IMG/VR virus record: IMGVR_UViG_2534682234_000019
Origin: a virus
Lineage: Duplodnaviria > Heunggongvirae > Uroviricota > Caudoviricetes
DNA length: 3,779 nucleotides
Direction: 5' to 3' (one strand)
Shown in pieces: positions 1-3,000 of this stretch (position 1 is the first letter of the stretch; each line of letters starts with the position of its first letter). Made by a program: the position numbers.

Positions 1-3000
1 GATGGTTTATGCAGTGACGGCAACGGCCTTGAGCTGAAATGCCCGTTTACCTCCCGGGATTTCATGAAGTTCCGGCTCGGTGGTTTCGAGGCCATAAAAT
101 CGGCTTACATGGCCCAGGTGCAGTACAGCATGTGGGTGACACGAAAAGATGCCTGGTACTTTGCCAACTATGACCCGCGCATGAAGCGTGAAGGCCTGCA
201 TTATGTCGTGATTGAGCGGAATGAAAAGTACATGGCGAGTTTTGACGAGATGGTGCCGGAGTTCATCGAAAAAATGGACGAGGCACTGGCTGAAATTGGT
301 TTTGTATATGGGGAGCAATGGTAATGAAGCATCCTCACGATAATATCCGGGTAGGCACGATCACTTTCGTCTACTCCGTTACAAAGCGAGGCTGGGTATT
401 TCCCGGCCTTTCTGTTATCCGAAATCCACTGAAAGCACAGCGGCTGGCTGAAGAGATAAATAATAAACGAGGGGCTGTATGCACAAAGCATCTCCTGTTG
501 AATTAAGAACGAGTATCGGGATGGCACATAGCCTCGCTCAAATTGGAGTCAGGTTTGTGCCAATACCAGTAGAAACAGACGAAGAATTTCATACGTTAGC
601 CACATCCCTTTCACAAAAGCTGGAAATGATGGCGGCGAAAGCAGAAGCAAACGAGAGAGACCCGGCATGACAACAACAGAATGCATTTTTCTGGCAGCAG
701 GCTTCATATTCTGTGTGCTTATGCTTGCCGACATGGGACTTGTTCAATGACACCTCAGCAGGAAAACGCCCTTCGCAGCATTGCCCGTCAGGCTAATTCT
801 GAAATCAAAAAAGCCAGACAGCAGTTTCCGGATAAAAACGTCGATGACATTTGCCGTAGCGTACTGAAGAAGCACCGCGAAACGGTAACGCTAATGGGAT
901 TCACACCGACTCATTTAAGTCTGGCGATCGGCATGTTAAACGGCGTCTTTAAGGAGCGATGAACATGAAAAGCAAAATCATCAGGGAGCTACAGGCTCCT
1001 TTTTTATTGTTCGCATTCACCCTCAAGCGTATTAACCAACAATTCAGGGATTAATGGAAGATGGCAGACATCATTGATTCAGCATCAGAAATTGAAGAAT
1101 TACAGCGCAATACAGCAATAAAAATGCGTCGCCTGAACTACCAGACTGTATCCGCAACTCATTGTTGTGAGTGTGGCGATCCGATAGATGAACGAAGACG
1201 CCTGGCAGTTCAGGGTTGTCGGACTTGTGCAAGTTGCCAGGAGGATCTGGAGCTTATCAGTAAACAGAGAGGTTCGAAGTGAGCGAAATTAATTATCAGG
1301 CACTGCGTGAAAAGGCAGAGAAAGCAACTAAAGGAAGCTACATCGTAGGGCATACATCTGTTAACCAGCACGGCAATTTAACAGGAGTTTTTGTTTGCCA
1401 AAAATGGAAAGGAGAACCCGGTGGTGTGATTGCGGAATGTCATGTTAACTGCCTGGTTGAAACAGATGTTCAGGCTTATGCAAACGCTGAATTTATTGCT
1501 GCCTTTAATCCAAATGTTGCGCTGGCGCTTCTGGATGAACGGGAAAGAAACCAGCAATACATCAAACGCCGCGACCAGGAGAACGAGGAGATTGCGCTTA
1601 CGGTTGGGAAGCTGCGTGTTGAGCTTGAAGCAGCAAAATCAAAACTCAACGAGCAGCGTGAATATTACGAGGGAGTAATCGCGGATGGAAGTAAGCGCAT
1701 AGCAGAACTGGAAAAACAATGCGCCGAATGGGAGCGAAAAGCATTAAGCAACTTTGAAGAGTGTGCTGCGATGGCTGAACGTATCGAAGAGATGCAGACA
1801 AAATCTGCACCAGATTCGTTTGGCATCATCGGTGAAAATATTCGAACACAGGACAATCGAATAACGTCAGATCCCATGTTTTGTGTGTATCAAAAGCGCG
1901 AAATCGCTGTTGATGCTGATTATGACCATGACCGGATTGTCTGGGTTGACGAAGATGGCAATGAAGCCAATAAACGCCATAGTCGTCGTCTCGAGCTACT
2001 TCATGAAAACTTTCGAGAGCCACCAGAAAAATGGCGGCGCGTTGCTGTGAAAGATATTGATGAATTCGTTACCTGCTGTTTCACCGAACAGGGTTGTAAA
2101 GACTACCTGGCAGTCAATGGTCACAATCTTCGCTTGCCATTTATATATGTAAAAAGCGGTTTCAGGAACGCTGAATATATCGGCATAAGAAACTGGCTTG
2201 CTGGCATTCGCATCAAAGGAGAGTGAGATGAACGGACAAATATCAATTATTCGCCCTGGCGCTTGTGACGAAGACAATAAGGCTGATTATCCGCCTTGCG
2301 ATGGGTAGAACAATAACTGCTCTCATTACTCCAGAAAATCTCGCATTAGCATTAACCGGAAAGTCAGACCTGCCAGTAGAGCTAAAGCTGCGAAATGTTG
2401 AGATTAAGGTGAAATAGCTATGACCACTTTTACCAATAGCAAACTAACAGACGAATACGTTTCAAATGCAACGTTGATTCGGCTCATTCTGTGGGCTGAC
2501 CAGCACAATAGCCATTATGTTGTAGCGGCTCTGCGCGAGCTACAGGAGCGCCGCAAGGCTGATAGTGCAGAACCTGGAAGCCAAACTTACAAGTTGCCAG
2601 TTAATACACCTTGCCAAGATGCGCCAGCCCATATCTGGCTGCAAACGGCTGGAGTATGGCCAGAAGATGGCGAGTTAAGCGAATTAACGTGGTGCAGCCA
2701 CAATCAACACCATGATGACACGCTATATGTTCGAGCTGACCTTGTGAATGGCAACTATCCGGCAACTCCGGATGGTTGGATAAGCTGTAGTGAGCGAATG
2801 CCGGAGAAATACGATTTCGATATCTGGGTATTCTCTCCATCCAGAGGTGTTCTTGACGGGCTACAGTGGGATGGCTCGATGTTTACTGATGATGAATATC
2901 AGTTCGTTATTCATGACGCCACGCATTGGATGAGAAAAGTATATCCAGCAGCACCGCAGCAGGATGGTGAATGATGCCGCCAGTTAAAGTTGTGATTATC

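What the first reader, a model, noticed from the sequence alone, without database searches (positions are those of the whole stretch)
951..1060. Strong SD plus 29-aa ORF enclosing a terminator hairpin: possible translation-controlled attenuator ahead of the TraR-like gene
A consensus AAGGAG (951-956) at ideal spacing precedes ATG 965. The resulting 29-aa ORF runs through the GGAGC/GCTCC hairpin and its T-tract (985-1008) and stops 6 nt before the TraR-like start. If ribosomes translate the ORF they would melt the hairpin, which could couple read-through into the TraR/Ea22 cargo to translation. Otherwise the hairpin is simply an internal terminator of the type that lambdoid N antitermination overrides. 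Either way it marks a regulatory boundary inside the operon.
Basis: partly seen in the sequence, partly recalled or inferred. Interest (0 to 1): 0.5.

Follow-up and report, generated by a model that had tools for sequence, protein, structure and literature searches.

The report
Terminator hairpin inside conserved small gene
A real 29-codon gene just upstream of the phage's TraR-like regulator carries a conserved transcription-stop hairpin in its own codons; both parts were already reported for phage lambda, and whether translation controls the stop is plausible but untested.

Summary
The window is the exo-xis (pL) region of a lambdoid Stx phage. The hairpin and T-run are the predicted terminator "t2" published for lambda and phi24B in 2014. 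The ORF is very probably the 31-aa "orf2313" seen by lambda ribosome profiling, and several phage records annotate it as hypothetical.

Comparison of about 300 related loci adds detail:
- The hairpin persists in at least five mutually incompatible stem versions.
- The U-tract is fixed by codon choice (Phe TTT 63/63, against TTC at the other Phe codons).
- The C-terminal half of the ORF is under purifying selection (dN/dS about 0.1-0.3).
- The ORF is a paralog of the last helix of Orf61.
- Its start is overlapped or abutted by the upstream gene's stop in most contexts.

Best reading: an intrinsic terminator that insulates downstream cargo, mostly the growth-inhibiting TraR homolog. N-modified polymerase reads through it, and closely following ribosomes probably weaken it. 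It lacks an antiterminator, regulatory codons and a leader position, so it is not a classical attenuator. By a published lambda tR2 precedent, initiation at ATG 965 alone should matter little. The upstream stop codon 20 nt before the hairpin should matter more. Ordinary to moderately interesting.

The parts
747..962 (+). orf61-like gene (phrog_303). Annotated from ATG 681; the likelier start is ATG 747. Its TGA stop at 960-962 lies 20 nt before the hairpin.
   Evidence: ORF list. phrog_303 match, E = 4.7e-36. VT1-Sakai annotation H0064, 'similar to lambda Orf61'. Distant homologs start at the 747-equivalent position.
951..956 (+). Shine-Dalgarno-like AAGGAG, 8 nt before ATG 965 and lying inside the end of orf61.
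   Evidence: Sequence. Anti-SD duplex energy is -8.4 kcal/mol here. It is <= -4 in 90% of 49 distinct upstream contexts that have an ATG or GTG start, against 19% of control positions. Most relatives have AAGGAA.
959..961 (+). Upstream in-frame ATG giving the 31-aa version. It overlaps the orf61 stop as ATGA. It is GTG in most relatives.
965..1054 (+). Small ORF of 29 aa, MKSKIIRELQAPFLLFAFTLKRINQQFRD. It is a paralog of the C-terminal helix of Orf61-family proteins.
   Evidence: Lambda has the identical 31-aa ORF, very probably orf2313 of lambda ribosome profiling. It is annotated in phages 21, 434, 4A7 and phi296 and in many genomes. dN/dS is 0.12-0.28 for codons 14-29. BLASTP against full-length Orf61 homologs gives 1e-8 and 8e-7.
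983..1001 (+). Terminator-type stem-loop: AGGGAGCU / ACA / GGCUCCUU, encoded by codons 7-12 of the small ORF.
   Evidence: -10.2 kcal/mol, z = -2.5. Flagged by the scan. Published as predicted t2. A hairpin is kept in 62 of 65 unique versions, in at least five stem classes. 91.9% and 96.4% of cells are paired, against <= 71% for slid controls. Cross-class chimeras lose about 5 kcal/mol, and <= 1.2% of synonymous recodings fold as well.
1000..1009 (+). U-tract TTTTTTATTG, from codons Pro-Phe-Leu-Leu (CCT TTT TTA TTG).
   Evidence: Phe13 is TTT in 63/63 hairpin-bearing versions, against 5 of 175 at the other three Phe codons. Leu14 is TTA in 61/61.
1046..1050 (+). SD-like AGGGA for the TraR-like gene, inside the last codons of the small ORF. 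The surrounding RNA is unstructured.
   Evidence: Sequence. Relatives have GGGAG 8 nt before the TraR ATG. Folding from the U-tract to the TraR start gives z = 0 to +2, so no structure occludes it.
1061..1282 (+). orf73 / TraR-DksA-like zinc-finger gene, the first cargo gene downstream of the terminator.
   Evidence: Pfam zf-dskA_traR, 1.9e-9. Annotations. The lambda Orf73 protein inhibits rRNA promoters and slows host growth (PMC9239242).

Best explanation
This is an intrinsic (Rho-independent) terminator written into codons 7-15 of a genuine, translated 29-aa gene. It sits at the boundary between the conserved recombination/early block (exo-orf60a-orf63-orf61) and the variable cargo block (orf73/TraR, ea22 and beyond) of the pL operon.

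Polymerase that is not N-modified, and that has no ribosome close behind it, stops here. This keeps stray transcription out of the growth-inhibiting TraR homolog. N-modified polymerase reads through during lytic growth.

The upstream gene's stop codon lies only 14-20 nt before the hairpin, and the small ORF's start is overlapped or abutted by that stop. A ribosome following the polymerase should therefore physically hinder hairpin folding. Termination efficiency is then set passively by how tightly transcription and translation are coupled, not by a dedicated sensor.

Shown here: the structure, its conservation through compensating changes, the U-tract fixed by codon choice, the coding constraint on the ORF, and the stop/start geometry. 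Inferred: that 3' ends form here in vivo, that N overrides the site, and that ribosomes modulate it.
For: - Hairpin plus U-tract: -10.2 kcal/mol, z = -2.5. It is flagged by the scan and was predicted independently by ARNold as t2 (PMC4195576).
- Selection on the RNA: 62 of 65 unique versions keep a hairpin of mostly -8.4 to -12.7 kcal/mol directly before T5-6. There are at least five stem classes (GGAGC/GCTCC, GGTCGC/GCGGCC, GCCTCT/AGAGGC, GGGAC/GTCCC, GGGTCG/CGGCCC). Native arm pairs average -9 to -11 kcal/mol. Cross-class chimeras give -1.6 to -7.3 kcal/mol, about -4 for most class pairs.
- Pair counts: 91.9% and 96.4% of cells paired, against <= 71% when partners are slid. Covariation scores exceed all 500 shuffles.
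- Only 0.1-1.2% of synonymous recodings fold as well.
- U-tract codon bias: TTT 63/63 and TTA 61/61.
- ORF is real: the start is conserved. SD-like motifs occur in 90% of 49 contexts against 19% of controls. dN/dS is 0.12-0.28 in codons 14-29. Lambda ribosome profiling reports a 31-aa ORF in this block, and only one such ATG ORF exists there.
- Geometry: the upstream stop overlaps the start as ATGA in 34 contexts, or ends 2 nt before it in 11, out of 61 contexts.
- Experimental precedent: terminators are repressed when the upstream stop is less than about 10-20 bp away and fully active beyond 30 bp (PMC4824070).
- Consistent in vivo data: mRNA drops across t2 in lambda but not in phi24B, although the terminators are identical. 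Lambda's orf61 is frameshifted, so its stop lies 148 nt rather than 20 nt before the hairpin.
- Orf73 slows growth when expressed, which gives a reason for insulation.
Against: - There is no direct 3'-end mapping or in vitro termination assay for this site. The RT-qPCR differences could reflect mRNA stability or Rho-dependent polarity.
- In lambdoid phages, polymerase lacking N should mostly have stopped already at tL1-tL3. The selective value of another terminator here is therefore not obvious.
- About 10 types of TraR loci lack the module and show no terminator upstream. Three Pseudocitrobacter-type versions keep the peptide without the hairpin.
- In 19 of 116 cases the module precedes genes other than TraR, so 'protecting the cell from TraR' cannot be the whole story.
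- Covariation within each stem class is modest, with only 1-3 pairs showing double changes.
- The sequences are related and recombine, so the shuffle statistics overstate independence.
Confidence: 0.6

Rival explanations
1. Dedicated translation-controlled attenuator. Initiation at ATG 965 and translation of the 29-aa leader melts the hairpin. TraR/Ea22 expression would then be a regulated function of translation of this ORF, as in leader-peptide attenuation.
For: The ORF encloses the terminator, as the pyrBI leader does. The start codon, the SD-like motif and the 18-nt spacing to the hairpin are conserved across 40 or more different upstream contexts. Rare codons (AGG, CTA, CGG) sit at the hairpin.
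Against: No conserved sequence can pair with either arm to form an antiterminator. Only 18 nt upstream of the hairpin are conserved, and everything further upstream is mosaic. There is no run of regulatory codons and no U-rich pause tract before the hairpin. The element lies deep inside an operon, not after a promoter. The peptide's C-terminal half is under protein-level selection, which is unlike a leader peptide. In lambda tR2/ninA constructs, a functional start 30 bp before the terminator lowered termination by only about 10%, because a newly initiating ribosome cannot catch the polymerase (PMC4824070).
Confidence: 0.15
2. The hairpin and U-run act mainly on the RNA rather than as a polymerase stop. 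They could be a 3'-end stabiliser, a processing site or an Hfq-binding end for the upstream early mRNA (or a 3'-derived sRNA). Alternatively they could tune reinitiation at the small ORF.
For: A stem followed by a U-run is also the Hfq/sRNA 3' module (PMC4104026). The hairpin sits at a fixed 18-20 nt after a start codon that is coupled to the upstream stop.
Against: No Rfam family matches the window. An Hfq-binding or stabilising 3' end would still have to be made by termination here, so this reading largely presupposes the terminator. The sequence upstream of the hairpin that could act as an sRNA body is not conserved. No published sRNA maps here in the papers I read.
Confidence: 0.08
3. It is a by-product with no function of its own. 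The small ORF would be a leftover 3' fragment of another orf61 allele at a recombination junction, and the hairpin and T-run would merely reflect its coding sequence.
For: The ORF is homologous to the C-terminus of Orf61-family proteins, and in Citrobacter and Pseudocitrobacter it is that C-terminus. The module lies exactly at a mosaic breakpoint. PFLLF codons are naturally T-rich. Three versions code for the peptide without any hairpin.
Against: Stems differ between lineages yet still pair, and the amino acids in the stem change to keep pairing (RELQAP, RSLSRP, QELKAP, RPLKEA). TTT and TTA are fixed, against TTC and CTG elsewhere in the ORF. At most 0.7% of synonymous recodings give a hairpin within 2 kcal/mol of native together with a T5 run. 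The stand-alone ORF keeps its start, an SD-like motif and low dN/dS. It is disrupted in only about 6 of about 160 loci.
Confidence: 0.06
4. The region is a sigma-70 promoter, p1 of Bloch et al. (-35 TCATCA, -10 TTTTATTAT), that drives orf73 and ea22 independently of pL.
For: It was predicted by BPROM and invoked to explain high orf73/ea22 mRNA in phi24B after H2O2 treatment (PMC4195576).
Against: My scan finds no promoter-like site here at >= 9 of 12 matches. With TATTGT as the -10 element the spacer is 21 nt. With TTTTAT the key A at position 2 is missing. In the Enterobacter-type relatives the '-10' becomes TATTGC and the '-35' becomes TCACCA/TCACCC, so it is not conserved as a promoter. The same predicted promoter is identical in lambda, where downstream mRNA is low.
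Confidence: 0.03

Closest known systems
Predicted terminator t2 (lambda and phi24B) between orf61 and orf73 (Bloch et al. 2014, PLoS One, PMC4195576)
   Same: It is the same element. The published sequence AAAATCATCAGGGAGCT ACA GGCTCCTTTTTTATTATT differs from window 974-1011 by one base in the tail, G1009 for A. It has the same position in the exo-xis block.
   Different: The paper treats it as an intergenic terminator. It does not note that it lies inside a translated ORF, that the ORF is conserved, or that lambda's orf61 frameshift changes the stop-to-hairpin distance.
Lambda orf2313, a 31-aa ORF detected by ribosome profiling (Liu et al. 2013, as cited in PMC8614690)
   Same: Lambda has exactly one 31-aa ATG ORF on this strand in the conserved exo-ea22 block. 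It lies at 30715-30620 and is identical in protein sequence to window 959-1054.
   Different: The identity is inferred from length and location only, because the primary paper was not readable here. The conserved start is the second ATG (965), which gives 29 aa.
N-suppressible intrinsic terminators of the lambda pL operon (tL1, tL2, tL3)
   Same: Each is a stem-loop plus U-run on the pL-transcribed strand within the early-left operon. By established lambda biology, N-modified polymerase should read through them. Window 388-410 appears to be tL3 itself.
   Different: Unlike the classical ones, this site has not been mapped experimentally. It lies wholly inside a coding sequence and travels with the cargo boundary.
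Ribosome-proximity control of intrinsic terminators: the pyrBI and pyrE attenuators, and the lambda tR2 position series (Li et al. 2016, NAR, PMC4824070)
   Same: The terminator hairpin lies within reach of a ribosome. As in pyrBI, the ORF runs through the terminator. As in pyrE/rph and the tR2 series, an upstream stop codon lies within about 20 nt of the hairpin.
   Different: There is no UTP-sensitive pause tract, no promoter-proximal leader and no known metabolic signal. The gating, if real, would be passive. In the precedent, a start codon close upstream had only about a 10% effect.
Orf61 family (phrog_303), predicted homeodomain-like three-helix proteins of the exo-xis region
   Same: The small ORF aligns with the last 24 residues of full-length family members at 42-50% identity. 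In Citrobacter and Pseudocitrobacter prophages that segment is the protein's C-terminus and directly abuts traR.
   Different: Here it is a separate 29-aa reading frame downstream of a complete orf61 that has its own, more diverged C-terminal helix. The 29-aa sequence alone matches no Pfam or PHROG model.

Membership tests
Intrinsic (Rho-independent) terminator | G+C-rich stem-loop of about 5-10 bp with a short loop | tested here: met
   8 bp (6-bp G/C-rich core), 3-nt loop, -10.2 kcal/mol.
Intrinsic (Rho-independent) terminator | A U-run immediately 3' of the stem, on the transcribed strand | tested here: met
   T6 at 1000-1005 then ATTG on the pL-sense strand. TTT and TTA codons are fixed in relatives.
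Intrinsic (Rho-independent) terminator | Structure maintained in evolution through compensating changes | tested here: met
   At least five stem classes that all pair. Chimeras lose about 5 kcal/mol. Covariation within each class is modest.
Intrinsic (Rho-independent) terminator | RNA 3' ends or polymerase release at the U-run | not testable with these tools
   Only indirect RT-qPCR data exist: a drop across the site in lambda but not in phi24B. EHEC Sakai Term-seq data exist (GSE143631), but no table was readable.
Leader-peptide attenuator, trp/his type | Mutually exclusive antiterminator and terminator structures | tested here: not met
   Only 18 nt before the hairpin are conserved, and they are not complementary to either arm. 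Upstream sequences are unrelated between contexts. The AAGGAGC:GCUCCUU complementarity (951-957 with 995-1001) is specific to this allele.
Leader-peptide attenuator, trp/his type | Regulatory codon cluster in the leader, positioned just after a promoter | tested here: not met
   There is no repeated codon. The element lies downstream of exo, orf60a, orf63 and orf61 within the pL operon.
pyrBI-type ribosome-coupling attenuator | Leader ORF reads through the terminator hairpin | tested here: met
   ORF 965-1054 contains hairpin 983-1001. This is conserved in relatives.
pyrBI-type ribosome-coupling attenuator | Nucleotide-sensitive pause sites (U-rich tract) upstream that set the polymerase-ribosome distance | tested here: not met
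   Positions 965-982 are A-rich (ATGAAAAGCAAAATCATC), and the equivalent stretch in relatives is not U-rich.
Terminator repressed by a nearby upstream stop codon (tR2 position series, pyrE/rph) | Stop codon of a translated upstream gene less than about 20-30 nt before the hairpin | tested here: met
   20 nt in this window. 14-16 nt in 34 contexts and 20 nt in 11, out of 61 distinct contexts. The threshold comes from PMC4824070. The functional consequence was not tested.
Protein-coding small gene (Orf61 C-terminal paralog) | Purifying selection in the reading frame, with start and SD conserved | tested here: met
   dN/dS is 0.12-0.28 for codons 14-29, based on only about 10 synonymous sites. 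It is about 1 for codons 1-13, which encode the hairpin. ATG or GTG is present in 49 of 61 contexts, and SD-like motifs in 90% of those.
Protein-coding small gene (Orf61 C-terminal paralog) | Evidence of translation or of the peptide itself | tested here: inconclusive
   A secondary source reports a ribosome-profiled 31-aa ORF in this block of lambda, and its identity is inferred from uniqueness.
Sigma-70 promoter (published prediction p1) | -35 and -10 hexamers with a 16-18 nt spacer, conserved | tested here: not met
   No site at >= 9 of 12 matches. The -10 T6 position is lost in diverged relatives.

The most novel reading that the evidence does not exclude
The small ORF and its embedded terminator form a portable 'translation-gated gate'. 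The cassette recombines as a unit to the front of cargo genes in enterobacterial lambdoid phages. Cargo transcription (above all of the RNAP-reprogramming TraR homolog) would then proceed only when a ribosome from the upstream early gene is right behind the polymerase, or when N has modified it. Laboratory lambda, whose orf61 is frameshifted, would be a natural uncoupling mutant, which would explain why it under-expresses orf73, ea22 and ea8.5 relative to phi24B.
Probability: 0.3. Interest if true: 0.55.

Novelty: already known. Interest (0 to 1): 0.33.

Why it matters
The exo-xis region influences the lysis-lysogeny decision and Shiga-toxin prophage induction. Orf73 is a potent reprogrammer of host RNA polymerase. 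The expression differences between lambda and Stx phages in this region have been reported but not explained.

A conserved terminator sits in front of orf73, and ribosomes coming from orf61 can reach it. That offers a concrete, testable reason for those differences. It also flags that lambda's truncated orf61 may alter downstream expression in cis. Knockout and frameshift mutants of orf61 used in the literature would then need re-interpretation.

More generally, this is a clean natural example of an RNA structure and a protein sharing the same codons, where the amino acids in the stem change to preserve base pairing.

If the terminator simply acts as an N-overridden stop, the finding is routine phage operon punctuation.

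Tried and rejected
- Rfam search of the whole window at E <= 1: no match, so the element is not a described RNA family.
- Pfam and PHROG scans of the 29-aa peptide alone: nothing. Homology to Orf61 emerged only from fused homologs and pairwise BLASTP.
- Programmed frameshift joining orf61 to the small ORF (-1 frame): rejected by inspection. There is no slippery heptamer at GTC TTT AAG GAG CGA TGA, and a prfB-like +1 shift would enter the wrong frame.
- A structure masking the TraR ribosome-binding site that the small ORF's ribosomes would open: rejected. The 70 nt between the U-tract and the TraR start are no more structured than shuffles, z = 0 to +2.
- SD sequestration by the terminator's 3' arm (951-957 is complementary to 995-1001): it occurs only in the AAGGAG allele and is not conserved.
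- Published promoter p1: not supported.
- The idea that the terminator always accompanies TraR: false in both directions.
- Hfq-CRAC sRNA paper: no sRNA reported at this locus in the text read.
- The GTDB genome scan was largely wasted on lambda-contaminated assemblies.
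Full report
**Where the window comes from**

Positions 700-1300 are 100% identical to Stx1 phage VT1-Sakai and about 98-100% identical to many Stx phages. The annotated gene order there is ssb, cIII, kil, gam, bet, exo, orf60a, orf63, orf61, a TraR-like gene, an Ea22-like gene, then xis and int. The + strand is therefore the sense strand of the leftward early (pL) operon.

Positions 940-1065 are 96.8% identical to phage lambda 30734-30609. 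The element thus exists in lambda itself. It lies between orf61 and the TraR homolog orf73, which NC_001416 does not annotate.

**Checking the observation**

Every stated feature is present.
- AAGGAG is at 951-956 and ATG at 965.
- The 29-codon ORF ends at TAA 1052-1054, and the TraR-like ATG is at 1061.
- The hairpin is at 983-1001, at -10.2 kcal/mol with z = -2.5.
- T6 is at 1000-1005.

An in-frame ATG at 959 overlaps the TGA (960-962) of the upstream orf61-like ORF. The hairpin starts only 20 nt after that stop.

On this single sequence the signal is weak. The window has 8 terminator-like sites against about 3.8 expected.

**What is already published**

Bloch et al. 2014 (PMC4195576) predicted exactly this hairpin with ARNold. 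They named it t2 in lambda and in phi24B and placed it between orf61 and orf73. They reported that orf73, ea22 and ea8.5 mRNAs are lower than upstream genes in lambda but not in phi24B. They also predicted a promoter, p1, overlapping the terminator.

A 2021 review states that lambda ribosome profiling found two extra ORFs in this conserved block, of 7 and 31 aa; the 31-aa one is named orf2313. Lambda has exactly one 31-aa ATG ORF on this strand in the block. Its product is identical to that of window 959-1054. I therefore infer that the two are the same, but I could not read the primary paper.

The 29-aa version is annotated as a hypothetical protein in phages 21, 434, 4A7 and phi296. It also appears in many E. 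coli and Enterobacter genomes.

**Comparative evidence**

I collected loci around TraR homologs from GTDB genomes and IMG/VR and by a DNA pattern. Of 186 TraR loci, 157 carry the small ORF directly upstream. These reduce to 65 unique 63-nt versions.

*Start and Shine-Dalgarno.* ATG 965 is conserved even in Enterobacter phage BHUENT3. ATG 959 is GTG in most relatives. Sequences upstream of the start fall into 61 distinct, often unrelated contexts, so this is a mosaic junction. Even so, 90% of the 49 contexts with an ATG or GTG start have an SD-like motif, against 19% of control positions.

*Stop/start geometry.* The upstream gene's stop overlaps the start as ATGA in 34 contexts. It ends 2 nt before the start in 11 contexts, including this window.

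*Hairpin.* 62 of the 65 versions fold into a hairpin directly before T5-6.
- There are at least five stem classes, in two registers.
- Arms of different classes do not pair with each other. Native combinations average -9 to -11 kcal/mol. Cross-class chimeras give -1.6 to -7.3 kcal/mol, about -4 for most class pairs.
- Within classes, 91.9% and 96.4% of cells are paired, against at most 71% when partners are slid. Covariation scores exceed all 500 shuffles, but only 1-3 pairs show double changes.
- One clear case is CGG...CCC against CAG...CCT. There a Pro third position tracks an Arg/Gln change.
- Only 0.1-1.2% of synonymous recodings fold as well.

*U-tract.* Phe13 is TTT in 63/63 hairpin-bearing versions, while the three other Phe codons are TTC in 170 of 175 cases. 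Leu14 is TTA in 61/61. The three versions without a hairpin use TTC.

*Coding.* Codons 14-29 give dN/dS of 0.12-0.28 between stand-alone lineages. Codons 1-13, which encode the hairpin, give about 1. The synonymous-site count is small, so this result is supportive rather than conclusive. The ORF is disrupted in only about 6 loci.

**Origin of the ORF**

In Citrobacter and Pseudocitrobacter prophages, the homologous 24 residues are the C-terminus of a full-length Orf61-family protein that abuts traR. Those proteins match phrog_303 end to end. BLASTP of the small ORFs against them gives 1e-8 and 8e-7.

The window's own orf61 ends in a more diverged copy of the same helix. The small ORF is therefore a partial paralog of orf61's 3' end, kept as a separate frame at a recombination boundary. 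The Citrobacter version has the hairpin and the Pseudocitrobacter version does not. The peptide and the terminator are thus separable.

**Link to TraR**

The link is not absolute.
- About 10 types of TraR loci lack the module and show no terminator upstream.
- In a pattern-based sample, 97 of 116 modules precede a TraR-like gene and 19 precede other genes.

The module marks the start of variable cargo rather than TraR specifically.

**Mechanism**

The conserved stem and the codon-enforced U-run point to an intrinsic terminator. That function is inferred, because no 3'-end data were available to me. By established lambda biology, N-modified polymerase should read through it. Lambda Orf73 slows host growth when expressed (PMC9239242), which gives a rationale for insulation.

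Is it an attenuator? Tests for classical attenuator features were mostly negative.
- No antiterminator can be conserved, because only 18 nt before the hairpin are conserved.
- There are no regulatory codons and no pause tract.
- It is not in a leader position.
- No structure masks the TraR ribosome-binding site.

Experiments on lambda tR2 (PMC4824070) show three relevant things.
- A terminator is almost fully repressed when the upstream stop codon is a few bp away.
- It is variably repressed (termination efficiency 0.12-0.8) at 17-18 bp and fully active beyond 30 bp.
- A functional start codon 30 bp upstream lowers termination by only about 10%.

Applied here, initiation at ATG 965 on its own should matter little. 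A ribosome finishing orf61 20 nt before the hairpin, and possibly reinitiating, could weaken termination substantially.

This fits one published oddity. Lambda has A7 where this window and phi24B have A6 (window 807-812). That truncates lambda's orf61 and puts its stop 148 nt before the hairpin. The review also notes the truncation. Lambda shows the mRNA drop across t2 and phi24B does not. This is correlation only. mRNA stability or Rho-dependent polarity could explain it equally well.

**Verdict**

The boundary/terminator reading is well supported and already published. The 'attenuator controlled from ATG 965' reading is not supported. A passive, ribosome-proximity-gated terminator is plausible and testable.

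The element itself is already known. New here are the evidence that hairpin, U-tract and ORF are jointly conserved, the Orf61 paralogy, the stop/start geometry and the frameshift explanation for lambda. Interest is modest.

Noticed in passing
window 388-410 (inside orf60a, 318-506): A second terminator-like hairpin, GAGGCTGGG-TATTT-CCCGGCCTT followed by TCTGTTATCC. It is identical to predicted t1 of Bloch et al. By position (lambda about 31265-31287, just after exo) it is probably the classical tL3 carried on pKD46-type plasmids. That identification is from memory and was not verified.
   Followed up: partly
window 667-750: A 27-aa hydrophobic ORF (MTTTECIFLAAGFIFCVLMLADMGLVQ) is linked by ATGA overlaps to the orf63 stop (668-670) and to ATG 747. 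It is identical in lambda. A homolog (MSTGECIALVIAFVACVFLSSKLGLLQ) sits directly before traR in a Pseudescherichia prophage (L056). It is probably a real, mostly unannotated small membrane-protein gene.
   Followed up: partly
window 681-962 versus 747-962: Distant Orf61 homologs (Citrobacter L047, Pseudocitrobacter L049) begin at the position equivalent to ATG 747. The usual 93-aa annotation from ATG 681 is therefore probably too long, and the gene is probably 71 aa.
   Followed up: partly
window 807-812; lambda about 30862-30868: Lambda has a run of 7 A where this window, phi24B and 67 other loci have 6. The extra base truncates lambda orf61 at 61 aa. Apart from lambda and lambda-identical contigs, only one other IMG/VR contig (L092) has A7 among the fetched loci. 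A +1 slip on AAA AAA A would restore the full frame.
   Followed up: partly
loci L012-L046 (GTDB genome contigs): About 35 'genomes' of unrelated taxa (Shewanella, Bradyrhizobium, Streptomyces, Paenibacillus, Prevotella and others) contain short contigs about 92-95% identical at the protein level to the query TraR. Where the upstream region could be read (13 loci), it matches lambda base for base. Several contig names show very low coverage. This is almost certainly lambda DNA contamination of the assemblies.
   Followed up: no
window 3091-3112, 3123-3142 and 3547-3566: Three more hairpin-plus-T-run sites lie in true intergenic gaps and flank ORF 3162-3506 (114 aa), just before the xis-like gene at 3588. 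The layout looks like a terminator-bracketed moron in the same operon.
   Followed up: no
window 951-957 and 995-1001: In this allele the SD region AAGGAGC is perfectly complementary to the terminator's 3' arm GCUCCUU. An SD-sequestering alternative pairing is therefore possible. Most relatives have AAGGAAC, so it is not conserved.
   Followed up: yes
whole window: No complete E. coli genome in the collection contains the window intact; the best matches cover 86% at about 99% identity. Parts of it occur in 4626 of 5426 genomes. This illustrates the mosaicism downstream of the Ea22-like gene.
   Followed up: no
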